DNA of 64,000 nucleotides from Eubacteriales bacterium (GTDB lineage Bacteria > Bacillota > Clostridia > Christensenellales > UMGS416). The notes under the pieces are model-generated. The model was not told the origin of the DNA, searched no databases, and saw only the letters and a list, made by a program, of their open reading frames with translations. The position numbers and the translations under genes are program-made. Each line of letters starts with the position of its first letter. The stretch's first letter is position 1. Of the stretch, positions 26,070 through 58,671 are shown piece after piece. The DNA lies in contig JBFLKU010000003.1 of NCBI GenBank assembly GCA_040883315.1, forward strand, positions 30,012 to 94,011. Direction: 5' to 3'.

Positions 26070-26294
26070 ATGGGAACTGGTTGGCTGTTAGGCGGAATTG
26101 CATGTCTTCTATATGCTGGATTGGTAGGATACTTCGGAGGAGTAAAAAAATCTCCGGGCCTGCTAAAGCTAGTTAAGATGAAGCTGAACAAAAACATGAG
26201 TGATGAAACTGCAGCAAAAGTATGCATGATAGCATCAATTGTTGTGGGACTAGGCGGAGTAGCACTGTTTATAGTAGGTGCAATAAAAGGATAA
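26070..26294 (+). CDS. small two-TM membrane protein
   Basis: 74 aa. Two hydrophobic helices flank a K-rich loop. AAAGGAGAAAG SD. Confidence 0.45.
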   Translation: MGTGWLLGGIACLLYAGLVGYFGGVKKSPGLLKLVKMKLNKNMSDETAAKVCMIASIVVGLGGVALFIVGAIKG

Positions 26295-26341: not shown

Positions 26342-27118
26342 TTAATCATTTGTCAGACTGAAAATAAAATCTTTTAATTTCTCTGTGTCTCCATTAGTCT
26401 CATATACCTTTTTAACTATGGCAGAGCCTACTATTGCTCCTTCTGCATGCTGGGAAAAGAATTTAACGGCATCTCTGCTGCTTATTCCAAATCCTACCGC
26501 TATAGGAAGAGTGGTTTGGCTTTTTACGTCTTTCAAATATTCCGTAACATTTTCATTGAATGTGTCTCGCACGCCCGTCACGCCCATGGTGGACACGCAG
26601 TACACAAAGCCAGCTTTTTCGTGTGCGATATCTTTTACTCTGTCCTTTGATGTAGGAGCGACCAGAGGAACCAAACAAATATCAAATGTATCTGTATATA
26701 TTTTCAGCTCGTCTCTCTCTTCCATCGGCAGGTCAGGAACAATAATTCCATCTATTCCAGCATCTTTGCATCTTTTTGCAAATTCTTCATTTCCGATATT
26801 GAAAATAGTATTGTAATACACTAGAAACAGCAATGGAACTTGTGATGATTTGCGTATCTTCACTACGCAATTGAATATATCATCAACACATATGCCATTT
26901 TCAAATGCACGCAGACCTGCATCCTGTATTACAGGACCGTCTGCCAGAGGGTCTGAATAGGGTATACCTATCTCTATTATGTCAGCTCCGCCCTGCTCCA
27001 TAGCCAAAACTAAATCAGCCGTTTTTTCTATGCTGGGGTCTCCGCCGGTCACGTACCCTATGAAGGCACATTTATTTTCTTTTTTAAGTTCATCAAATTT
27101 TGCTGTTATTCTATTCAT
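26342..27118 (-). CDS. trpA: tryptophan synthase alpha chain
   Basis: [28 protein letters not shown]...[15 protein letters not shown]. Start moved to the ATG at 27118, which has a GGTGGA SD. The track start is 27130. Confidence 0.93.
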
Positions 27119-28301
27119 TTTTTCCACCATCCTTGTTTGCCAGATTGACTATGGTGTGCATGTCTTTGTCTCCTCTGCCGGAAATATTAATAACCACTAT
27201 TTCATCTTTTTTCATTTTAGGCACTATCTTCAGCGCATGTGCCACAGCGTGGGCGCTCTCTAGTGCTGGTATTATGCCCTCAGAGCGTGAAAGCTGGTAT
27301 AGTGCAGATACAGCCTCGTCATCCGTTATGCTCACATATTCTGCACGCTTTGTATGGTATAGATAAGAATGCTCTGGTCCTACACCTGGGTAATCCAGCC
27401 CTGCAGATATAGAATATACGGGGTATATGTTGCCGTCATCGTCCTGTATCAGGTATGTTTTCATGCCATGAATTATGCCTTTTCTTCCCTTTGCAAATGT
27501 GGCTGCGTGCAAAGGAGTATCAATGCCTTTTCCGGCTGCTTCCACGCCTATCAGCTTCACATTCTTATCATCAAGGAAAGGATAGAACATGCCTGCAGCA
27601 TTGCTTCCGCCGCCTATGCATGCCACTATTGCATCAGGCAGCTTGCCTTCTTTTTTTAATATTTCTTTTTTGGTTTCATCGCCGATTATCCTCTGGAAAT
27701 CACGCACCATCATAGGATATGGATGTGGACCTACAACAGAGCCTATTATATAGAATGTATCTTCAGCCGTACGGACCCATTCTCGTATGGCTTCATTTGT
27801 AGCGTCTTTAAGTGTTTTTGTTCCGCTAAGAGCCGGCACTACCTTTGCACCGAGCATCTCCATCCTAAATACATTCAGCCTTTGGCGCTCCATGTCCTCT
27901 TCACCCATGAACACTGTGCATTCCATATTAAATAGTGCTGCACCTGTAGCTGTTGCCACGCCGTGCTGACCTGCACCGGTTTCGGCAATCACTTTTTTCT
28001 TGCCCATTCGCTTTGCGAGCAGTATTTGCCCCAGAACATTGTTTATTTTGTGTGCCCCTGTGTGGTTCAGGTCTTCTCTTTTCAGATATACCTTTGCGCC
28101 GCCTAGCTGCTCTGTCATATTTTTGGCAAAATACAAAGGAGAAGGCCCGCCAACATATTCTTTTATATAGTAATCATATTCTTTTTTGAATTCAGGGTCA
28201 GCTTTAGCCTCTTCATATGCTTTTTCCAAATCTTTTAGTGGATGCATTAATGATTCCGGAACGTATTGTCCGCCGAATTCACCAAATTTGGTATTGTTCA
28301 T
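27111..28301 (-). CDS. trpB: tryptophan synthase beta chain
   Basis: 396 aa. PLP-lysine region [11 protein letters not shown] and GGGSNA. Confidence 0.95.
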
Positions 28302-28927
28302 TTTCTTGCCTTTCTGAGAAATTGCTCTATCTTGTCTTTGCTTTTCATTGTTATGCCGTTTTCTGTGGTCTCTACTCCGCTGGATACATCCACTACCTGT
28401 GGATGAACTGTGGCTATTGCGCTTTCTATATTTTCTGCATTCAGCCCGCCTGCCAGCACCAGATTTGTATCTTGGGATATTCCAGAGAGCATATCCCAGT
28501 TAAATGCCTTGCCTGTGCCGCCCTCCATGCCTTTGATATAGGTATCTGTTACAATAGCTGCAACATTTTTATATTTGCTGGCTTTGTTGGCTAGGGCTAT
28601 GCTATTTTCATCCTTTATGCCTATTCCGTACCATACAGGCTTTTGAATATCTGCAATCATATCCTGTGTATAGTTTTTATGTACTTGGACAATATCTAAT
28701 CCGACATTTTTTACTATTGAATTAATCTCAGCAACACTATGGTCTACAAAAACACCAACTTTTTTAATTCCATCTTTCAATGCATTTGAAAGCAGTCTCG
28801 CCTGATCAACATCTATTTGGCGTATGCTTTTGGCGAAGACAAACCCTATATAGTCGATATCCATTTGGTTTATGAATTCAATTTCATTTATGTCCTTTAT
28901 CCCGCATATTTTAATCTTGGTATGCAT
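28298..28927 (-). CDS. trpF: phosphoribosylanthranilate isomerase
   Basis: 209 aa. [10 protein letters not shown]...IDYIGFVF pattern. 4-nt overlap with trpB. Confidence 0.9.
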
Positions 28928-29702
28928 CTTTGAATTCCTTTGCCTTTTTGCTGATATTTTCGCACTTCATAAAGGTTTCACCTACAAGTATAGCATCAAT
29001 ATTCGCAGTCTTTATCTTTGATATATCATCTTTGGTGTTTATTCCGCTTTCACTCACTAATAGTGCTTTTCCGTCTATCACCTTTGCAGTATCTATGGTA
29101 GTTGTTATGTCCACATCAAATGTATTAAGATCCCTGTTATTTACTCCAATGATATTTGCACCTATTTCAATAGCAATTTTTGCTTCATCTATGTTATGGG
29201 TTTCCACCAAAGCATCCAATCCTATAGATTTTGCTGTTTTGTATAGACTGCTAAGCTGTTTTTCTTCCAGCATTGCCACTATCAGCAAAACAGCACTTGC
29301 ACCTATAGCCTTTGCTTTGTATATCTGGTATTCATCGGCTATAAAGTCCTTGCAGAGTATAGGCAGGTCTACATTCTGCGAAACTGCGGATAAATAGTCA
29401 TAGTGTCCCTGAAAGAAATCATTTTCTGTCAGTACCGATATAGCATCTACACAGTCTGCATATTCTTTAGCGATTTTTACGGGGTCAAAATCTGCTTTAA
29501 TTAGTCCTTTTGAAGGAGAGGCTTTTTTTATTTCACCTATAATGGAAAGCCCGTCTTTTGCAATTGCCTTATAGAACGAATTCTTTATTTGGGTGTTTTC
29601 AGAGAGTATTTTTATTTGGTCAAGGCTTATATGTTCTTTTTCCTGTTTCACTCTATATAGCTTTTTATCCAGTATCTTTTCAAGAATAGATGGTTTATTC
29701 AT
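28911..29702 (-). CDS. trpC: indole-3-glycerol-phosphate synthase
   Basis: 263 aa. IGEIKKASPSKG, ISVLTE and IGVNNRDL motifs. Confidence 0.9.
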   Translation of the reverse strand: MNKPSILEKILDKKLYRVKQEKEHISLDQIKILSENTQIKNSFYKAIAKDGLSIIGEIKKASPSKGLIKADFDPVKIAKEYADCVDAISVLTENDFFQGHYDYLSAVSQNVDLPILCKDFIADEYQIYKAKAIGASAVLLIVAMLEEKQLSSLYKTAKSIGLDALVETHNIDEAKIAIEIGANIIGVNNRDLNTFDVDITTTIDTAKVIDGKALLVSESGINTKDDISKIKTANIDAILVGETFMKCENISKKAKEFKDAYQD

Positions 29703-29709
29703 ATTGACC

Positions 29710-31299
29710 TCAGCTCATTCCCGATGATTTTTCAGCCAATTCATTAATCACATCTACAGCCTTTTTAGATTTTATTATTTCTTTAGCTAGCCTTATGCCG
29801 TCTTCAATGCTGTCCGCTTTTTTTCCAATATATAACGCAGCACCGGCATTAAGCAGCAGAATGTCCAGCTTAGGTCCTTTTTCTTTTCCGCTTAGCAAAT
29901 CCAAAACTATCTGTGCATTAGTTTCTGCATCGCCTCCAATTAAGTCTTTTATAGCAGCCTTTTTGAATCCAAATTGATCTGGTGATATTTCATAAGTTTT
30001 TATGATTCCATCCTTTAGCTCTGCAACAAAAGTGGTGTCCGTTGTGGATAGTTCATCCAGCCCGTCTCTGCCGTGCACCACCATAGCTCTTTCTACGCCA
30101 AGGTTTTTCAATACGTTTGCCATTGGCTCTGACAGGCTCTCTTCGAATACTCCCAACACTTGTCCGTTTGCACTAGCAGGGTTTGCCAGAGGACCTAGTA
30201 TATTAAACATTGTACGGTACCCCAATGTTCTGCGTACGCCCATTACGTGCTTCATAGCCTTGTGGAAAGTAGGAGCAAAGAAAAACCCAATACCGCATTC
30301 ATCTACACATTCTTTGGTCTGCTCAGGAGATAAAGATATATTAACTCCCAGCTTTTCTAAAACGTCAGCGCTACCGCATTTGCTGGATATGGATCTGTTG
30401 CCGTGCTTTGCCACTTTTATGCCTGCAGCAGCGGCTATAAATGCAACGGCTGTAGATATATTGAACGTTCCAAGCTTGTCGCCGCCTGTGCCACATGTAT
30501 CCAGAGTGTATTCATCTATAACAACTGATGACGCCTTTTCTCGCATTACCTTTGCAGCAGCGGATATTTCATCCACAGTCTCGCCTTTTATCTTCAGGGC
30601 TGTCAGGAAAGCACTTATTTGTATTTCGGGCACGCTTCCGCTCATTATTCCGTCCATAACATTTATCATTTCATCGCTATTTAAATTATTGCCTTCTACA
30701 ACTTTTATTAATTCATTTGTTATCATAGTTTTTTCTCCTATCTCCATGAAGTTTTTAATTATTTCCATGCCTTGAGGCGTGTATATCGACTCTGGGTGGA
30801 ACTGCAGACCATATATAGGATATTCTTTGTGTTCCACAGCCATTATTTCGCCGTCATCTGTTTTTGCAGTTATCTTCAGGCAGTCCGGCATTGTGTCATC
30901 TATAATTGCCAGAGAATGATATCTGGCGACCTTAAGAGGTGATTGAAGGTTTTTGAATAGTTTGCTGTTTTCAAAATTAATCATGGAAAATTTGCCATGG
31001 TAAAGCTTTTTAGCGTGGCTGACAGTTGCCCCAAATGCTTCGCCTATGCATTGGTGACCTAGGCAGATGCCCAGAATAGGGATTTCTTTTCCCAGTTCTT
31101 TGATTATATCTATGGATATTCCGGCATCATGAGGAGTACCGGGGCCTGGTGATATAATTATTTTCTCTGGGTTCAGTGCCCTGATTTCTTCTATTGTTAT
31201 CTTGTCATTACGCACTACTTTTATATCTGGATTTATGCTGCCTGCGTATTGATAAACATTGTATGTAAAGGAGTCATAATTATCTATTAGCAATATCAT
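29710..31299 (-). CDS. trpGD: fused anthranilate synthase component II (glutamine amidotransferase) / anthranilate phosphoribosyltransferase
   Basis: The N-terminal ~190 aa form a class-I GATase (GICLGHQ, HPES). The C-terminal ~335 aa are TrpD (CGTGGD, KHGNRS). Confidence 0.9.
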   Translation of the reverse strand: MILLIDNYDSFTYNVYQYAGSINPDIKVVRNDKITIEEIRALNPEKIIISPGPGTPHDAGISIDIIKELGKEIPILGICLGHQCIGEAFGATVSHAKKLYHGKFSMINFENSKLFKNLQSPLKVARYHSLAIIDDTMPDCLKITAKTDDGEIMAVEHKEYPIYGLQFHPESIYTPQGMEIIKNFMEIGEKTMITNELIKVVEGNNLNSDEMINVMDGIMSGSVPEIQISAFLTALKIKGETVDEISAAAKVMREKASSVVIDEYTLDTCGTGGDKLGTFNISTAVAFIAAAAGIKVAKHGNRSISSKCGSADVLEKLGVNISLSPEQTKECVDECGIGFFFAPTFHKAMKHVMGVRRTLGYRTMFNILGPLANPASANGQVLGVFEESLSEPMANVLKNLGVERAMVVHGRDGLDELSTTDTTFVAELKDGIIKTYEISPDQFGFKKAAIKDLIGGDAETNAQIVLDLLSGKEKGPKLDILLLNAGAALYIGKKADSIEDGIRLAKEIIKSKKAVDVINELAEKSSGMS

Positions 31300-31308
31300 A
31301 ATTCACCT

Positions 31309-32706
31309 CTACTTTCTGAGCACTTGCATAAGTGCCTGTACTTTGTTCTGGGTCTCTTCATATTCGCTCTCCGCTATGGAATCTGCCACTATGCCTGCCC
31401 CTGCCTGCATGTATACCATTCCTTCGTGTATCAGCATAGTGCGAATAGCAATACACATGTCCATGTCTCCATCGAAGCCAAAATAGCCTATAGCTCCTCC
31501 ATACATACCTCTCATGCTTGGTTCCAATTCCTCAATTATTTCCATTGCACGGATTTTTGGGGCTCCTGACAGGGTGCCCGCAGGCAGGAAGGTGGAAAGA
31601 ACATCAAACGAGTCGATTTCTTCTCTTTTTTCGCCCTCTACCAATGAAACCAAATGCATTACGTGGGAATAATTCCTGACATCCATCATAGTAGGCACAG
31701 TAACAGTGCCTATCTTTGCCACTCTTCCCATGTCATTTCTGCCTAAATCCACAAGCATCACATGCTCTGCCTGCTCTTTAGGGTCAGCCAGCAGATCCTT
31801 TGCCAGTGCTTGGTCTTCTGAGACGTCTTTTCCTCTTTTCCTAGTGCCTGCAATAGGGCAGGTGGTGACGGTCTTTCCGCGTACGCCAACTAGCATTTCG
31901 GGGGAAGAACCAGCTACCTGATAGTCTCCTAGATTAAAATAAAAAAGATATGCAGAGGGATTGATTTGTCTTAGCTTTCTATATAGCGTAAATGGGTGTG
32001 CATGGCATTCTATGCTCCAGCGCTGGGATAGCACTACTTGAAATATATCACCTTCATAGATGTATTTCTTTGCTTTGTTTACCATGTCGCAGAATTGCTC
32101 TTTGCTCACATTGGACTGTGGCTCACCATGATGTGTGTCCACAGAATTGATGTTTTCAAGGGTTGCATTTTCATGCAGCAGTTTTTCTATTGCTTCCAGT
32201 TTTTTTTCTGCTGTTTCCTTGCCCTGTTTGTCATCGGACTCTAAAACAACAATATTTATCTGCTGGAATTTGTGGTCAAAAGCTATAAGCTCCCTAACAA
32301 ACAATAGATTGACATCAGGAAGCCCTAATGTGTCCTCATTCGTTCTTGGCAGCTCTTCATATTGTCTGATGATGTCGTAGCCTATTGTGCCTACGGCACC
32401 GCCTACAAATGGTATATCAGAATTGTTTGTCACGTGATATTTGCCAATGTATTCTCTGGCAACGTCCAATGCTCTGCCATCAAAAACAGATAGTTTGCCT
32501 CTTTGTTCGACAACTACTTTTTCATCTTTTGATCTTATTGTTAAAAATGGATTTTTGCCCAAAAAGGAATAGCGTCCTTTAGGCATTTCAGCACTCTCTA
32601 AAAGAAAGCCCTTGCCTTCACCTACATATTTTGAGTAAAGTGTCACAGGAGTCTCTAAGTCTCCTGAAATACAGCGTATGTAGGGAATCAGTCTTTGAAT
32701 TCCCAA
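31309..32706 (-). CDS. trpE: anthranilate synthase component I
   Basis: 465 aa. Chorismate-binding domain (GAPKIRAMEII, GGAIGYF). TTG start 9 nt after a GAGAGGAG SD. No in-frame ATG nearby. Confidence 0.9.
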   Translation of the reverse strand: MGIQRLIPYIRCISGDLETPVTLYSKYVGEGKGFLLESAEMPKGRYSFLGKNPFLTIRSKDEKVVVEQRGKLSVFDGRALDVAREYIGKYHVTNNSDIPFVGGAVGTIGYDIIRQYEELPRTNEDTLGLPDVNLLFVRELIAFDHKFQQINIVVLESDDKQGKETAEKKLEAIEKLLHENATLENINSVDTHHGEPQSNVSKEQFCDMVNKAKKYIYEGDIFQVVLSQRWSIECHAHPFTLYRKLRQINPSAYLFYFNLGDYQVAGSSPEMLVGVRGKTVTTCPIAGTRKRGKDVSEDQALAKDLLADPKEQAEHVMLVDLGRNDMGRVAKIGTVTVPTMMDVRNYSHVMHLVSLVEGEKREEIDSFDVLSTFLPAGTLSGAPKIRAMEIIEELEPSMRGMYGGAIGYFGFDGDMDMCIAIRTMLIHEGMVYMQAGAGIVADSIAESEYEETQNKVQALMQVLRK

Positions 32707-32752
32707 CTTGTCTGGTCTCCTCTCGTCTATTCTGTCAGTCTAATCTATTCTA
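32707..32752 (-). promoter_or_regulatory. array of nine NAG triplets at 5-nt period covering the trpE SD and start (TRAP-binding-site-like)
   Basis: On the minus strand: TAGaaTAGatTAGactgaCAGaaTAGacGAGagGAGacCAGacAAG, then TTG. Confidence 0.45.
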
Positions 32753-32900
32753 GATATATAAAATATCTCTCTAAGGAATCAAAAAACCCGCATAAAGTGA
32801 AAAACGAAATGTAAAATGTTTATACGATTTTTTTCGATTTTGACTATGTTAACATATCAATAGCTTTTTGTAAAGTTATTTTATCTTTCAGCGTTGCAAT

Positions 32901-32926
32901 ATAAAAGAGCCCTTTTTGAGCTCTTT
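32901..32926 (-). terminator. intrinsic terminator after phoR
   Basis: On the minus strand: AAAGAGCtcaaaaaggGCTCTTTTAT. Confidence 0.6.
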
Positions 32927-32932
32927 AAGTAA

Positions 32933-34693
32933 TTATATAGGAAATTTAATATCTATTTTTGTTCCCTTGCCCAGTGCAGACTCTATGGATATTTTCCCGT
33001 CATGCATAATGGCAAGGTGCTTTACAATGGACAAACCTAGCCCAGTACCTCCTGTATCTCTAGATCTGTGCTTATCCACTCTATAAAATCTTTCGAAAAG
33101 CCTGCTGTGGTGTTTTTTGTCTATACCTATTCCGGTGTCTGTCACGCTCATTGTGATGCTGCTATTGTCTTTTTTAAATTCAATGGATACAGAGCCTTCC
33201 TCTGTATGCTTGATTGAGTTGTCTACAAGATTTATTAGAATCTGCTTCAGCTTGTTTCTGTCGCCTAGCATGGTGTAGTCTGTATCCTTGTCATATTCTA
33301 CTTTCATAGCGATATTGCTTTTCTCAGGATATTTTTGCTGTATCAGCTCTATTACTTCCTTGGCTATTTTTATTAAGTTTACTTTAGTGGTGAATACAGG
33401 CTTATTCTGGTTCTCAAGCCCTGAGAGCGTCAATATATCATCTATCAGCAGGTTTAGCCTTTCTGATTCATCATTTATGATATTCAGGAATTTATACGCA
33501 TTCTCTTTGTCTTCTATAGCACCGTTAAGCAAGGTCTGGGTGTAGCCTGAGATGCAGGTGATAGGCGTTTTCAGCTCGTGTGTCACGTTGGATACAAATA
33601 CGCTTCTCATGCGCTCCAGCTTTCTGATGTTTGTTACGTCCTCAACCACCAAAAGAATGCCCTTTTTAGTACCTTCATTGTCTTTTATGAAGCAGCCGCT
33701 GTAGTTTCTGTATGTGTCGTCTGAAAACTGAACGTTGTTCTTGGTTATCAGCCTGTCTTCCTCGCTGTCTTTTATCTCCTCTAATATATCGTATAGGTTT
33801 TCATCGAAGATATTGTGATATATGTTTTTGCTTATCAGTTCTCCGTCCATTTTCACTATCTTAAGGAATGTGTCATTGGTGTACTGCACTTTTCCGTTTA
33901 TGTTGCACACCAGAATACCCTGGTTCAGGCTCTGAAGAATGGCCTCTAGCTGCGCGTTTTTGGTGGAGATTTTGTCAAAAGATTTTTTCAGGCTTTTGGA
34001 TAGTTTGTTTAATGCCACTGAAAGCCGTGTCACCTCTTCATATGAGTTTATATACACGCTTTTTCCATAGTTTCCATTGGATATGGATCTAGCAAATTTT
34101 GTTATGCTTTCTATAGGCTGTATCACTTTTCTGTTGTATCTGTAGGATATCAAAAACGCAATGACAGCAGATATGAAGATAGCCAAAATCATTGATGATG
34201 CAATTGAATTATAAGAGTCTCTAATATTGTACAAGGGAGTAGAAGCTCGGATTACCAGCTTATTGCTGCCGATTTCTAGATATCTGGCATAATATATAAA
34301 GTCAACATTTTCTGTTTTGGAATGCCTGACAGATGAGCCTTCACTATATCTTAGTGCTTCGCTTATTTCCTCTCTGTATAGATGATTATCCATAGATGAA
34401 ACATCGTTAAAGCTGTCACCTAGCACTTCACCGGTTTCCGAGTCAATCACTGTTATGCGGTTTCCGGAGTATTTGCCAAAGTCTTTGCTGCTGGTATTCA
34501 AATCTGTATCAGGTTTATTCTCCAAAAGATATATGTATCCGTCTAGGCTCTCTGTAATATCAGCATAGGCTTCATTTATTAATGTATTCTTTATTCTTAT
34601 GTAGCTGAAAATACCACTGATTAAAATAAGAATGGTCAGTGACAATATAGTGCTTCTAATTAGTGTCTTTTTCAAGTTTGTACCCCACGCCAA
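32933..34693 (-). CDS. phoR: phosphate-regulon sensor histidine kinase (PhoR-like)
   Basis: Two TM segments, HAMP, PAS, H-box HELKTPIT and HATPase (GTGLGLSIV). TTG start overlaps the phoP 3' end. Confidence 0.85.
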   Translation of the reverse strand: MAWGTNLKKTLIRSTILSLTILILISGIFSYIRIKNTLINEAYADITESLDGYIYLLENKPDTDLNTSSKDFGKYSGNRITVIDSETGEVLGDSFNDVSSMDNHLYREEISEALRYSEGSSVRHSKTENVDFIYYARYLEIGSNKLVIRASTPLYNIRDSYNSIASSMILAIFISAVIAFLISYRYNRKVIQPIESITKFARSISNGNYGKSVYINSYEEVTRLSVALNKLSKSLKKSFDKISTKNAQLEAILQSLNQGILVCNINGKVQYTNDTFLKIVKMDGELISKNIYHNIFDENLYDILEEIKDSEEDRLITKNNVQFSDDTYRNYSGCFIKDNEGTKKGILLVVEDVTNIRKLERMRSVFVSNVTHELKTPITCISGYTQTLLNGAIEDKENAYKFLNIINDESERLNLLIDDILTLSGLENQNKPVFTTKVNLIKIAKEVIELIQQKYPEKSNIAMKVEYDKDTDYTMLGDRNKLKQILINLVDNSIKHTEEGSVSIEFKKDNSSITMSVTDTGIGIDKKHHSRLFERFYRVDKHRSRDTGGTGLGLSIVKHLAIMHDGKISIESALGKGTKIDIKFPI

Positions 34694-36018: not shown

Positions 36019-36792
36019 TTAACTATACTTACCGGTTATGTATTCTTCTGTTTTTTGGTTAGACGGGTTGGAAAAAATGGTGTCAGTATCATCAAATTCT
36101 ATCACCTCGCCCAGCAAGAAAAATGCTGTCTTGTCTGATACTCTTGCTCCCTGCTGCATATTGTGTGTTACTATAGCTATAGTATAGTCTTGTTTAAGCT
36201 CTGCAATCAAGTCCTCTATTTTCAATGTGGATATCGGATCCAGTGCAGATGTAGGCTCGTCCATCAGCAGCACATCAGGCGACACAGCAAGTGCACGTGA
36301 TATACACAGCCTCTGCTGCTGCCCTCCTGAAAGGCTGAGTGCGTTTTGGGGAAGTATATCTTTTACTTCTCCCCATAGTGCTGCTGAGCGAAGACTTTGC
36401 TCCACTATCTCATCCAGCTGAGATTTGTTTTTTATTCCATTCAGCTTGGGGCCGTATGCAATATTGTCATATATGCTCATAGGAAATGGATTAGGTTTTT
36501 GAAAGACCATTCCCACCCTAGTTCGCAGTCCTATTACATTATAGTTTTCCTGATAGATGTCTTCGCCGTCTAATAGCACTTTGCCATCTACTTTTGTGCC
36601 CTCTATTAGGTCATTTATTCTGTTCATTGTGCGCAGCAGCGTGGACTTGCCGCAGCCGGAAGGTCCAATGAATGCTGTCACTTTATTTTCAAGAATATCC
36701 AGATTGATTTTTTTCAGTGCCTTGAAATCACCATAGTAAAAATCTAAATCTTTTATCTGTATTTTGGGCTTTTCTTGTTTTTTGCTGCTCAT
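36019..36792 (-). CDS. pstB: phosphate ABC transporter ATP-binding protein
   Basis: [23 protein letters not shown] and [11 protein letters not shown]. 257 aa. Confidence 0.93.
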
Positions 36793-57189: not shown

Positions 57190-58671
57190 ATGAACGAAAT
57201 AAACCTTGAAAGCATGAAGGTTTCCGAGCTGAAGAAACTAGCAGAAGAGTCTAATCTGGAGCTGCCTCCAAAGGCGAAAAAGGACGAGATAATTAAAATA
57301 ATACAAAAAAAGATAGACGAATATAATGAGCAGATTGAAAACGGCGGAATTGTTATAAGCAAATCTGACGCAGAAAATGAAGCAAAAAAAGTTTCAGTTA
57401 TTGATGATGATTTTGATGAAGAAGATGAGATTTTTGAAGATGAAAGCAGCAAACCTGCGAAAAAGCCAAAAGGGAAAAAGAAAAAGGACAATTCTGCTGC
57501 AGTAAATGAAATGATTAAAAATGAAGACTGCGGAGAAGCGTATGGGGTGCTAGACATTCAGCAAGACGGATATGGATTTTTACGTTCAGTTCAGAAAGGT
57601 GAAAAAGACGTTTATGTATCGATAAATCAAATAAGGAAATTCAAGCTTCGCCAAGGGGATTTGGTGAAAGGGCTGACAAGACCAGAAAAAGAAAACGAAA
57701 GATATCTGGCAATGCTCTACATTACAGAGATTAACGGGCAAACACCCGGAGAAATACAAAAGAGAAAGCATTTTGAAGACTTAGTGCCAGTATTCCCTGA
57801 GGAGAAGCTGGTGCTTGAAAGAATAGAACACCCAAATCAAATAGCATTAAGGCTGGTAGACCTGGTAGCACCTGTAGGAAAAGGACAGCGCGGAATGATT
57901 GTGTCTCCGCCGAAAGCAGGAAAGACTACATTGCTAAAAAATATTGCCAACGCAATATCATCGAATTATCCAGAAATACATTTGATAGTTCTACTAATAG
58001 ATGAGCGTCCTGAAGAAGTGACGGATATGCAGCGCTCCACAAAGGGCGAAGTTATATCTTCAACATTCGATGAACGTCCGGAAAATCACTGCAAGATTGC
58101 AGAGATGGTGTTAGAGCGTGCCAAGAGACTTGTTGAGCAGGACAAGGACGTTGTTATCCTGCTGGATTCAATTACAAGACTTGCAAGAGCATACAACCTG
58201 ACAGTAGCACCATCCGGAAGAACTCTATCAGGCGGACTAGACCCAACAGCATTGTTTAAGCCGAAAAGATTTTTTGGTGCAGCAAGAAATATTGAGCACG
58301 GCGGCTCGCTGACAATTTTGGCGACTGCATTGGTGGATACAGGCTCTCGTATGGACGACATAGTATATGAAGAATTTAAGGGCACAGGAAACATGGAGCT
58401 TCATTTGGACAGAAGGCTGCAGGAGCGCAGAATATTCCCAGCCATAGATTTATATAGAAGCGGCACAAGACGTGAAGAAGTCCTGATGAGCAAAGAAGAA
58501 GTAGAGACTATCTGGAAGGTGAGAAAGCTGCTGGCTGGAAACCAAGAAACCGCAACTGAACAGCTGGTAGATATGATGACAAAAACCACTACAAATGCAG
58601 AATTTGTGGTTAAACTTAACCAATGGCTAAACCTGATGGACAAGGAAGGATTTAGGCAGCCGGGCAGATAA
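57190..58671 (+). CDS. rho: transcription termination factor Rho (with charged N-terminal insertion)
   Basis: 493 aa. Rho_N helix bundle, CSD-like RNA-binding domain (DGYGFLR), Walker A PPKAGKTT, and Q/R loops. Confidence 0.95.

What the first reader, a model, noticed from the sequence alone, without database searches (positions are those of the whole stretch)
32707..32782. TRAP-like NAG triplet array covering the trpE Shine-Dalgarno and start codon
Immediately 5' of the trpE TTG start, the minus strand reads TAG-aa-TAG-at-TAG-actga-CAG-aa-TAG-ac-GAG-ag-GAG-ac-CAG-ac-AAG-TTG. That is nine NAG triplets: 4 UAG, 2 GAG, 2 CAG and 1 AAG. They form two blocks with strict 2-nt spacers, separated by one 5-nt spacer. 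The array runs straight through the GAGAGGAG SD. This is the architecture of binding sites for the undecameric trp RNA-binding attenuation protein (TRAP/MtrB). In Bacillus, TRAP binds 9-11 (G/U)AG repeats with 2-3-nt spacers and blocks ribosome binding at trpG, trpP and ycbK. Trp operons in clostridial-type genomes are more usually T-box controlled, and I found no T-box core here. A possible promoter (TTGATT 32782-32777, 16 nt, TATATA 32760-32755) would give a very short 5'-UTR made almost entirely of the repeats. That implies translational repression rather than terminator/antiterminator attenuation.
Basis: partly seen in the sequence, partly recalled or inferred. Interest (0 to 1): 0.6.

Follow-up and report, generated by a model that had tools for sequence, protein, structure and literature searches.

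The report
TRAP-type triplet operator on trpE start
Nine NAG triplets spaced about five bases apart cover the ribosome-binding site and run up to the start codon of the first tryptophan-synthesis gene; all ten related uncultured Clostridia examined keep the array, so it is most likely a landing pad for a tryptophan-sensing ring protein like Bacillus TRAP, but whether these genomes encode that protein could not be checked.

Summary
On the minus strand, 32752-32707 reads TAG-aa-TAG-at-TAG-actga-CAG-aa-TAG-ac-GAG-ag-GAG-ac-CAG-ac-AAG and directly abuts the TTG start of trpE. It is the best such array in the 64 kb window (1 of 200 shuffles reaches its score).

The array is conserved. All ten trpE loci with at least 76% TrpE identity carry 7-9 closely spaced NAG triplets (8-10 in the best-scoring chains) running through the invariant GAGAGGAG Shine-Dalgarno to the start codon. 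The first triplet base and the spacers vary, while the AG is almost invariant. Twenty-eight more distant relatives have no such array, and most show a T-box core by eye.

This is the architecture of the TRAP operators that block ribosome binding at B. subtilis trpG, trpP and ycbK.

The proposed promoter is not conserved; a conserved TTTACA-17-TGnTAACAT promoter lies upstream and gives a structured leader of about 130 nt. The key test, an mtrB gene in this organism, could not be run. No TRAP homolog lies in the window or in any fetched flank of clade genomes, although TRAP homologs do exist in other Clostridia MAGs.

Verdict: a real, conserved, probably TRAP-type translational operator and a new member of a known kind. 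The protein that binds it is unverified.

The parts
32707..32752 (-). Array of nine NAG triplets (TAG,TAG,TAG | CAG,TAG,GAG,GAG,CAG,AAG). This is the putative binding site for a TRAP-type ring protein.
   Evidence: Sequence. Unique in the window. 1 of 200 shuffles reaches its score. An orthologous array is present in all ten clade leaders.
32740..32752 (-). Distal block: TAG-aa-TAG-at-TAG. A 5-nt spacer (32739-32735) follows.
   Evidence: In L169 and L170 the two blocks stay in 5-nt register through a non-AG triplet (TTG or ACG). In the window and L168 the register is shifted.
32707..32734 (-). Proximal block: CAG-aa-TAG-ac-GAG-ag-GAG-ac-CAG-ac-AAG, all spacers 2 nt, ending at the start codon.
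   Evidence: The core acGAGagGAGac is present in 9 of 10 clade leaders (ct instead of ac before it in L179); the GAGagGAGac part is in all 10.
32717..32724 (-). Shine-Dalgarno GAGAGGAG, made of two GAG triplets of the array.
   Evidence: AGGAG ends 10 nt before the TTG. Invariant in the clade.
32704..32706 (-). TTG start codon of trpE.
   Evidence: It is the first start after an in-frame TAG. The homologous codon is TTG in L168, GTG in L169 and L170, and ATG in L002, L003, L172, L173, L179 and L180.
31309..32706 (-). trpE (anthranilate synthase component I, 465 aa).
   Evidence: Pfam PF04715 and PF00425. 100% identical to an NCBI MAG protein labelled Eubacteriales bacterium.
26342..31299 (-). 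Rest of the operon: fused trpG-trpD (29710-31299), trpC (28911-29702), trpF (28298-28927), trpB (27111-28301), trpA (26342-27130). The genes are closely packed or overlapping.
   Evidence: ORFs. Pfam domains.
32846..32874 (-). Probable promoter: -35 TTTACA, 17-nt spacer with TG, -10 TAACAT.
   Evidence: Promoter scan. The same TTTAC[AT]-17(TGn)-TAA[CTG]AT occurs in all ten clade loci, 78-145 nt before the start codon.
32771..32786 (-). Invariant UUUUUUGAUUCCUUAG in subclade A. The U-run plus GAU closes a 5' stem-loop with the 5' end of the leader, and UUCCU is predicted to pair with the SD.
   Evidence: Alignment. MFE folds of the four subclade A leaders all show both pairings. This is prediction only.
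32753..32770 (-). Small hairpin immediately 5' of the first triplet (AGAGAUAU..AUAUAUCU). It is longer and more G+C-rich in L169 and L170.
   Evidence: RNAalifold consensus of window, L168, L169 and L170. Single folds.
32683..32704 (-). Hairpin GGGAAU...AUUCCC at the very start of the coding region.
   Evidence: RNAalifold consensus. The compensatory pair GGGAAC/GUUCCC in L172 was read from the sequence.

Best explanation
The array is an RNA operator for a multimeric, tryptophan-activated RNA-binding protein of the TRAP (MtrB, PF02081) type.

The trp operon mRNA starts at the conserved TTTACA-17-TGnTAACAT promoter. It carries a 5' stem-loop and then a single-stranded run of nine NAG triplets spaced about 5 nt apart. 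That run includes the two GAGs of the Shine-Dalgarno and ends at the start codon.

When tryptophan is plentiful, the ring protein would wrap this stretch around itself, one triplet per subunit. That hides the SD and start codon from the 30S subunit, so trpE is not translated. The tightly packed downstream genes would then drop through loss of translational coupling, and possibly through Rho-dependent polarity or mRNA decay. When tryptophan is scarce, the protein releases the RNA and the strong SD is used.

Shown here: the array, its phasing, its conservation, its position, and the absence of a T-box or of a terminator after it. Inferred: the identity of the protein, the tryptophan dependence, and the downstream polarity.
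For: (1) The sequence is exactly as described and is the top-scoring array in the window.

(2) 10 of 10 loci with 76-100% TrpE identity have 8-10 triplets in the best-scoring chain (7-9 of them closely spaced) ending at the start codon. Their scores are 5.5-8.5, against 3.0 or less in 28 relatives with 47-65% identity.

(3) Selection signature. At the three variable triplet positions flanking the SD, the first base takes 3-4 different values among the ten sequences, while the AG is kept in 28 of 29 cases. Weak triplets in the window (CAG-ac-AAG) are TAG-ac-GAG in the 92%-identical L168. Spacers of 1, 2, 3, 4, 5 and 7 nt occur. L002, L003 and L180 have 8-9 canonical (G/U)AG triplets.

(4) The array region has no significant structure of its own (z = 0.09), as TRAP binding needs single-stranded RNA.

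(5) The architecture equals the known TRAP operators that overlap the SD and initiation region of trpG, trpP and ycbK and compete with ribosomes (PMC1635260, PMC10327191). The consensus there is GAG/UAG repeats with 2-3 nt spacers.

(6) The regulated gene is trpE, and the sister lineages regulate the same gene with Trp T-boxes. A tryptophan-linked control element is therefore expected at this spot.

(7) TRAP-family proteins are not confined to Bacillaceae. PF02081 proteins occur in MAGs labelled Clostridia, Clostridiales, Bacillota, Limnochordia and Synergistales, typically just downstream of dnaE.

(8) A rho gene lies in the window.
Against: No mtrB homolog was found in the 64 kb window or in any flank fetched from clade genomes. 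The HMM search found its positive controls. The genomes as a whole could not be searched, so the defining trans factor is unverified.

The window's own array is only moderately good. It has 6 canonical triplets plus 2 CAG and 1 AAG, and one 5-nt spacer breaks the 5-nt register. B. subtilis sites use 2-3 nt spacers.

The ten leaders are related by descent, and the SD-proximal half is nearly identical, so part of the conservation is simply SD conservation.

No second array near another trp-related gene was seen in about 320 kb of scanned loci, of which about 215 kb is clade DNA.
Confidence: 0.6

Rival explanations
1. The array is a real regulatory operator, but it is read by a protein that is not a canonical TRAP. 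Candidates are a divergent TRAP-like ring lacking the usual tryptophan pocket, or an unrelated oligomeric RNA-binding protein. RBS occlusion would work in the same way.
For: No mtrB in any sampled clade DNA. Divergent TRAP-like families exist that keep the RNA-contact residues (E36, K/R37, K/R56, R58) but lack the GLTRGxDT loop, namely P0198, P0231 and P0234. The arrays here are UAG-rich, and CAG and AAG are tolerated.
Against: Only a few percent or less of each genome was sampled, so absence means little. The site fits canonical TRAP rules (NAG, mostly 2-nt spacers, 8-11 units). HutP, the other known UAG reader, uses 4-nt spacers according to my own knowledge, and that spacing is not seen here.
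Confidence: 0.15
2. The array has no dedicated regulator. It is a purine-rich extended SD or translational enhancer, plus a slippage-prone 5-nt microsatellite (TAGAT/NAGAC), kept by descent. The UAGs may also stop stray upstream translation in all three frames.
For: The most conserved part is the SD itself. L002 reads (TAGAT)3TAG, and L004 carries a perfect 19-nt tandem repeat, so slippage clearly generates such arrays. A chain of 6 NAG alone is reached in 29 of 200 shuffles. The sequences are not independent.
Against: The first base and the spacers turn over while AG and the approximate phasing are kept across 76-100% TrpE identity and six different genomic contexts. GAG replaces TAG in L172, L173 and L179, so stop codons are not what is conserved. 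The T-box-regulated relatives have ordinary SDs without arrays. In this clade the array coincides with loss of the T-box.
Confidence: 0.17
3. A T-box, another riboswitch or a leader-peptide attenuator controls the operon, and the triplets are incidental.
For: T-box control is the rule in the nearest outgroups, and L004 still has one. The leader is about 130 nt and has a predicted 5' stem-loop followed by a U-run.
Against: No Rfam family reaches threshold, and there is no T-box hit even at E of 10 or less. The scan finds no terminator-like site in 32600-33000. The only small ORF in the leader (ATG CGG GTT TTT TGA) has no Trp codon. No terminator lies between the array and the start codon.
Confidence: 0.04

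Closest known systems
TRAP operators at the B. subtilis trpG (pabA), trpP (yhaG) and ycbK ribosome-binding sites
   Same: A run of (G/U)AG-type triplets with short spacers overlaps the SD and the translation initiation region, and no terminator is involved. The expected mechanism is direct competition with the 30S subunit (PMC1635260 and PMC10327191).
   Different: The controlled gene here is trpE, the first gene of the whole operon. The host is an uncultured clostridial lineage, not a Bacillus. The window's site has only 6 canonical triplets and one 5-nt spacer. The binding protein has not been identified.
B. subtilis trpEDCFBA leader (11 triplets, antiterminator/terminator switch, 5' stem-loop, SD-sequestering hairpin)
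   Same: The same gene is controlled, the triplet count is 9-11, and a 5' stem-loop precedes the triplets. A possible anti-SD element (UUCCU) lies upstream in subclade A.
   Different: There is no terminator or antiterminator after or within the array. The triplets themselves cover the SD, whereas in B. subtilis they lie upstream of it and act through refolding.
Trp T-box leaders of related Clostridia (Rfam RF00230)
   Same: Same position in front of trpE, same pathway, and the same broad lineage. L004 combines a T-box with a triplet array.
   Different: No T-box is detectable here. The presumed signal would be free tryptophan through a protein rather than uncharged tRNA-Trp.
HutP binding site of the B. 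subtilis hut operon (UAG repeats)
   Same: An oligomeric, amino-acid-activated protein reads repeated UAG triplets in a leader. This rests on my own knowledge and was not checked in a paper here.
   Different: HutP sites have 4-nt spacers in two sets of three and act by antitermination on histidine utilisation genes. Here the spacers are mainly 2 nt, GAG is interchangeable with UAG, and the gene is trpE.

Membership tests
TRAP (MtrB) RNA operator | Nine to eleven GAG/UAG triplets separated by 2-3 nt | tested here: inconclusive
   The window has 9 NAG triplets but only 6 are G/UAG. Seven spacers are 2 nt and one is 5 nt. Orthologous sites in L002, L003 and L180 meet the rule well, with 8-9 canonical triplets and spacers of 2-4 nt.
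TRAP (MtrB) RNA operator | Located in the leader or initiation region of a tryptophan biosynthesis or transport gene | tested here: met
   The array abuts the trpE start and contains its SD.
TRAP (MtrB) RNA operator | Triplet phasing, not sequence, conserved among relatives | tested here: met
   10 of 10 clade leaders carry the array. AG is kept in 28 of 29 variable triplets while the first base and spacers change. It is absent from 28 outgroup leaders.
TRAP (MtrB) RNA operator | Binding region single-stranded | tested here: met
   The leader fold is no more stable than shuffles (z = 0.09). Only weak pairs are predicted inside the array.
TRAP (MtrB) RNA operator | A TRAP protein (PF02081) encoded in the same genome | not testable with these tools
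   None in the window or in about 150 kb of clade flanks by tblastn and HMM, with positive controls found. The last protein search returned nothing usable. A walk upstream in OY776378.1 found none.
TRAP (MtrB) RNA operator | Tryptophan-dependent protein binding and repression | not testable with these tools
   Needs filter binding, toeprinting or reporter assays.
T-box leader (RF00230) | Stem I with specifier loop, T-box sequence, terminator/antiterminator | tested here: not met
   No hit at gathering threshold in the window and none at E of 10 or less in 32600-33000. The same search finds T-boxes in L004, L005 and L006.
HutP operator | UAG triplets separated by 4 nt, in two sets of three | tested here: not met
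   Spacers are 2 nt (one of 5 nt), and GAG, CAG and AAG substitute for UAG. The defining rule is taken from my own knowledge.

The most novel reading that the evidence does not exclude
The clade genomes contain no canonical mtrB. The phased NAG array would then be read by a different ring-shaped RNA-binding protein, for example one of the divergent TRAP-like families that lack the tryptophan-binding loop, or an unrelated factor. In this lineage that would have replaced the ancestral Trp T-box. L004 would be a transitional leader that senses tRNA-Trp charging (T-box) and the second signal (triplet array) in cis on one transcript.
Probability: 0.15. Interest if true: 0.75.

Novelty: new member of a known kind. 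Interest (0 to 1): 0.45.

Why it matters
TRAP is a textbook RNA-binding regulator studied almost only in Bacillus and Geobacillus. The data here predict a TRAP-type operator in an uncultured clostridial clade from metagenomes (at least one sample also carries the Microbiome Anaerobic Digester label is not established; the habitat is unknown). In that clade it sits directly on the trpE ribosome-binding site and appears to have taken the place of the T-box used by neighbouring lineages.

If confirmed, this would extend the functional range of TRAP. It would give a natural series of operators with 7-15 triplets and spacers of 1-7 nt for studying binding rules. It would also offer a case of regulatory turnover (T-box to protein-RNA operator), with a possible intermediate in L004.

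If mtrB turns out to be absent from the two complete chromosomes, the array would point to an unknown triplet-reading protein.

Tried and rejected
(1) TRAP in the window. tblastn with G. stearothermophilus TRAP and an HMM built from 92 TRAP representatives against all six-frame ORFs gave nothing. The 74-aa ORF next to trpA (26070-26294) is a small hydrophobic protein, not TRAP. The 83-aa ORF called upstream of trpE in L173 is a low-complexity read-through of the leader.

(2) TRAP in clade genomes.
- The search for homologous proteins with TRAP listed only Bacillaceae among its top 120 of 4559 hits.
- A representative search gave 127 clusters but no link to this clade.
- A local leave-one-out test showed that a profile query would be swamped by Bacillaceae.
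- L162 and L002 share comM and dprA, which suggested mtrB might lie upstream of comM in OY776378.1. A walk there found ClpB, RNase HII and a glycosyltransferase, but no TRAP.

It worked only through a cluster-member id.

(4) The metagenome scan with TrpE added no full-length clade member.

(5) Rejected alternatives: T-box or other Rfam families, a leader peptide with Trp codons, and a terminator in the leader.

(7) Papers on the trpP operator and the T-box review (PMC305772, PMC2650889) are not held. Exact triplet counts for trpG, trpP and ycbK are therefore not quoted.

Full report
OBSERVATION

Reading the minus strand gives ...tatatatc TAG aa TAG at TAG actga CAG aa TAG ac GAG ag GAG ac CAG ac AAG TTG gga att caa... 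The nine NAG triplets occupy 32752-32707. The two GAGs form the Shine-Dalgarno GAGAGGAG (32724-32717). The TTG at 32706-32704 opens a 465-aa ORF that is anthranilate synthase component I (PF04715 + PF00425).

TTG is the first start codon after an in-frame TAG. In orthologues the homologous codon is TTG, GTG or ATG, followed by the same Gly-Ile/Thr...Ile-Pro-Tyr N-terminus. The start is therefore well supported.

Downstream lie a fused trpG-trpD, then trpC, trpF, trpB and trpA, closely packed or overlapping. Upstream lies a pst-phoU-phoB-phoR cluster on the same strand.

IS IT MORE THAN CHANCE?

In the whole window the only chain of six NAG with 2-nt spacers is in this leader. So are both chains of three (G/U)AG with 2-nt spacers on that strand. 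I scored arrays with 1 point for GAG or UAG, 0.5 for AAG or CAG, and a penalty for spacers outside 2-3 nt. The array scores 6.75. The best score anywhere in dinucleotide-preserving shuffles of the 64 kb, both strands, is 4.69 +/- 0.56, and 1 of 200 shuffles reaches 6.75. A plain chain of six NAG is not rare (29 of 200 shuffles), so the window alone gives moderate significance. The position at the trpE start and the comparative data carry the argument.

RELATIVES

The window's TrpE is identical to a protein of an NCBI MAG labelled Eubacteriales bacterium and to one Logan contig. Its closest relatives fall into two groups:
- Subclade A, with fused trpGD and a pst-pho context: L168 (92% identity), L169 (84%) and L170 (81%).
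- Subclade B, with separate trpG and trpD and varied contexts: L002 = OY776378.1 (79%), L172 (78%), L173 (77%), L003 = OY781093.1 (76%), L179 (76%) and L180 (76%).

Every one of these ten loci (the window plus nine) has an array ending at the start codon:
- window: TAG-aa-TAG-at-TAG-actga-CAG-aa-TAG-ac-GAG-ag-GAG-ac-CAG-ac-AAG|ttg
- L168: AAG-at-TAG-aa-TAG-actga-CAG-aaatgac-GAG-ag-GAG-ac-TAG-ac-GAG|ttg
- L169: TAG-at-TAG-ac-AAG-at-TAG-atttgac-CAG-ac-GAG-ag-GAG-ac-CAG-ac-AAG|gtg
- L170: TAG-at-TAG-ac-AAG-at-TAG-aaacgac-TAG-ac-GAG-ag-GAG-ac-CAG-ac-AAG|gtg
- L002: TAG-at-TAG-at-TAG-at-TAG-ttta-TAG-ac-GAG-ag-GAG-ac-GAG-at-GAG
- L003 and L180: TAG-ac/at-TAG-at-TAG-tat-TAG-aa-TAG-ac-GAG-ag-GAG-ac-AAG-ac-GAG|atg
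- L172: GAG-ac-GAG-at-TAG-tat-CAG-ac-GAG-ag-GAG-ac-AAG-ac-GAG|atg
- L173: AAG-ac-GAG-ca-TAG-aa-CAG-ac-GAG-ag-GAG-ac-GAG-ac-GAG|atg
- L179: ...AAG-at-GAG-at-TAG-aa-TAG-ct-GAG-ag-GAG-ac-GAG|atg

In each locus this is the top-scoring array in about 20 kb.

The pattern of change is informative. At the variable triplets next to the SD the first base takes three or four values across the ten sequences, while the AG is kept in 28 of 29 cases. The single exception is ATG in L168. The weak CAG-ac-AAG of the window is TAG-ac-GAG in its 92% relative. Spacers of 1, 2, 3, 4, 5 and 7 nt occur. In L169 and L170 the 7-nt spacers are 2+3+2, which keeps an exact 5-nt register through a non-AG triplet.

As a control I took the 105 nt around the trpE start of 28 more distant relatives (47-65% identity). 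They score 3.0 or less, against 5.5-8.5 in the clade. By eye most of them carry the T-box core GGGTGGTACCGCG followed by a terminator. Rfam confirms T-boxes in L004, L005 and L006.

Caveat: the ten leaders share ancestry, and the SD-proximal half is close to identical. The independent evidence lies mainly in the distal half and in the first-base and spacer turnover.

THE REST OF THE LEADER

The promoter scan finds TTTACA-17-TAACAT with a TG extension at 32874-32846. The same TTTAC[AT]-17(TGn)-TAA[CTG]AT occurs in all ten loci. It lies 132-145 nt before the start in subclade A and 78-87 nt before it in subclade B. The surrounding intergenic DNA is otherwise diverged.

In L169 and L170 TTGATT has no properly spaced -10. 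TTGATTCC belongs to an invariant UUUUUUGAUUCCUUAG. In the MFE folds of all four subclade A leaders, this element closes a large 5' stem-loop with the 5' end of the transcript. Its UUCCU also pairs with the SD AGGAG.

A small hairpin sits immediately 5' of the first triplet. Another (GGGAAU...AUUCCC) begins at the last base of the start codon and covers the first codons, with a compensatory GGGAAC/GUUCCC in L172. Subclade B leaders each fold into a 5' stem-loop of different sequence before the array. These structures are predictions only.

The array region itself is not significantly structured (z = 0.09). No terminator-like site is found in 32600-33000. No Rfam family matches, even at E of 10 or less. 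The only mini-ORF in the leader has no Trp codon.

MECHANISM

The anatomy is a phased run of NAG triplets that contains the SD and ends at the start codon, with no terminator after it, in front of trpE. That is the anatomy of the TRAP operators of B. subtilis trpG, trpP and ycbK. [quoted passage not shown]

From my own knowledge, the A and G of each triplet make the main contacts, and the first base is preferred in the order G > U > A > C. That matches the invariant AG and variable first base seen here.

I therefore think the most likely mechanism is translational repression of trpE by a TRAP-type ring protein in the presence of tryptophan. Secondary loss of downstream expression would follow from lost translational coupling, and possibly from Rho, since a rho gene lies at 57190-58671. 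The 5' stem-loop before the triplets recalls the 5' stem-loop of the B. subtilis trp leader. Its role here is speculative.

THE MISSING PIECE

The trans factor was not found and could not be properly searched for. No PF02081 homolog lies in the window. None lies in the 10-kb flanks of any trpE locus fetched, and the same HMM detects TRAP in control loci L174 and L176. None lies in an extra 5 kb upstream in OY776378.1. The sampled regions are about 64 kb in the window's genome and about 20 kb each in nine others, of genomes of roughly 3 Mb, so these negatives weigh little.

What can be said is that TRAP is not confined to Bacillaceae. Of 127 clusters at 50% identity, several are labelled by NCBI as Clostridia bacterium, Clostridiales bacterium, Bacillota bacterium, Limnochordia, Synergistales and WOR-3. 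In three independent non-Bacillaceae groups the gene sits just downstream of dnaE, and in two of them pfkA follows. That is where to look first in the clade genomes.

COMPARISON AND NOVELTY

As a cis element this behaves like a TRAP operator of the RBS-occluding kind. Membership is met for position, phasing conservation and single-strandedness. It is borderline for the window's own triplet quality (6 canonical of 9, one 5-nt spacer) but good for L002, L003 and L180. It is untested for the protein and for tryptophan dependence. It is not a T-box (tested, not met), and it does not fit the 4-nt spacing of HutP sites.

I rate it a new member of a known kind. The mechanism is known. The target (trpE RBS instead of an attenuator), the host lineage (uncultured Clostridia labelled Eubacteriales or Christensenellaceae) and the apparent replacement of a T-box are new details.

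The composite leader of L004 is the most unusual relative. It has a Trp T-box (100 bits, specifier UGG by eye) plus a terminator. A perfect 19-nt tandem repeat that supplies 15 triplets follows, and then 4 triplets at the SD. The perfection of that repeat also warns that slippage can create such arrays quickly.

VERDICT

I put 0.6 on a TRAP-family protein being the binder, 0.15 on a different binder, about 0.17 on no dedicated regulator, and 0.04 on an RNA-only or leader-peptide mechanism. Interest is 0.45.

Noticed in passing
L004:1479-1861 (JAUUZV010000025.1): Composite trpE leader. A Trp T-box (Rfam 100 bits, specifier UGG by eye) with its terminator is followed directly by a perfect 19-nt tandem repeat, TAGATAAGATGAGAAGAGT x about 3.6. 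That repeat gives 15 NAG triplets, and 4 more triplets sit at the SD.
   Followed up: partly
L162-L167:10001-10249; L174/L175:10001-10258; L176:10001-10240: TRAP (PF02081) genes of three non-Bacillaceae groups all lie immediately downstream of dnaE. In two groups pfkA follows, inside a murB-(rapZ)-whiA-dnaE-mtrB-pfkA cluster. One of these TRAPs (P0261) is very widespread: the index lists it in 583 blocks of the collection.
   Followed up: partly
proteins P0198, P0231, P0234, P0187, P0214: Divergent TRAP-like small proteins keep the RNA-contact residues (E-K/R...K/R-x-R) but lack the GLTRGxDT tryptophan-binding loop. Several very large proteins (775-2268 aa) carry 2-7 TRAP-like stretches.
   Followed up: no
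window 32771-32786 (-): UUUUUUGAUUCCUUAG is invariant in the four subclade A leaders. It is predicted to close a 5' stem-loop, and its UUCCU is predicted to pair with the SD AGGAG (a possible anti-SD). GAUUCC recurs at 32689-32684 inside the coding region.
   Followed up: partly
window 32683-32704 (-): Hairpin GGGAAU..AUUCCC begins at the last base of the start codon. It is present in most clade members, with a compensatory GGGAAC/GUUCCC in L172. It could tune initiation or simply reflect codon choice for Gly-Ile...Ile-Pro.
   Followed up: partly
window 29710-31299 (-) versus L002:11403-12995: trpG and trpD are fused into one 529-aa protein in the window and in L168-L170. They are separate genes in L002, L003, L172, L173, L179 and L180.
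   Followed up: no
L171, L173, L179, L180 flanks: The trp operon of subclade B sits in a different neighbourhood in almost every genome. A transposase lies nearby in OY776378.1, and Mob/recombinase genes lie nearby in L173. This suggests the operon, with its leader, moves or is often rearranged.
   Followed up: no
window 57190-58671 (+): A rho gene (Rho_RNA_bind + ATPase domains) lies in the window. It is relevant to polarity if trpE translation is blocked.
   Followed up: no
window 26070-26294 (+): A conserved 74-aa hydrophobic ORF without a Pfam match lies just after trpA on the opposite strand in all subclade A loci. It is not TRAP-like.
   Followed up: partly
L007:9890-10000 (Vallitalea sp. 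MAG): This T-box-type leader has three TAGs with 3-nt spacers (TAGatgTAGtttTAG) between the terminator and the SD. It is the highest-scoring outgroup (3.0) and may be chance.
   Followed up: no
window versus Logan contig SRR28267356_177568: The only indexed contig with the identical TrpE ends at about window position 36,660 and extends about 29 kb to the left of the window. The window therefore comes from another assembly, probably the 125,684-bp NCBI MAG contig.
   Followed up: no
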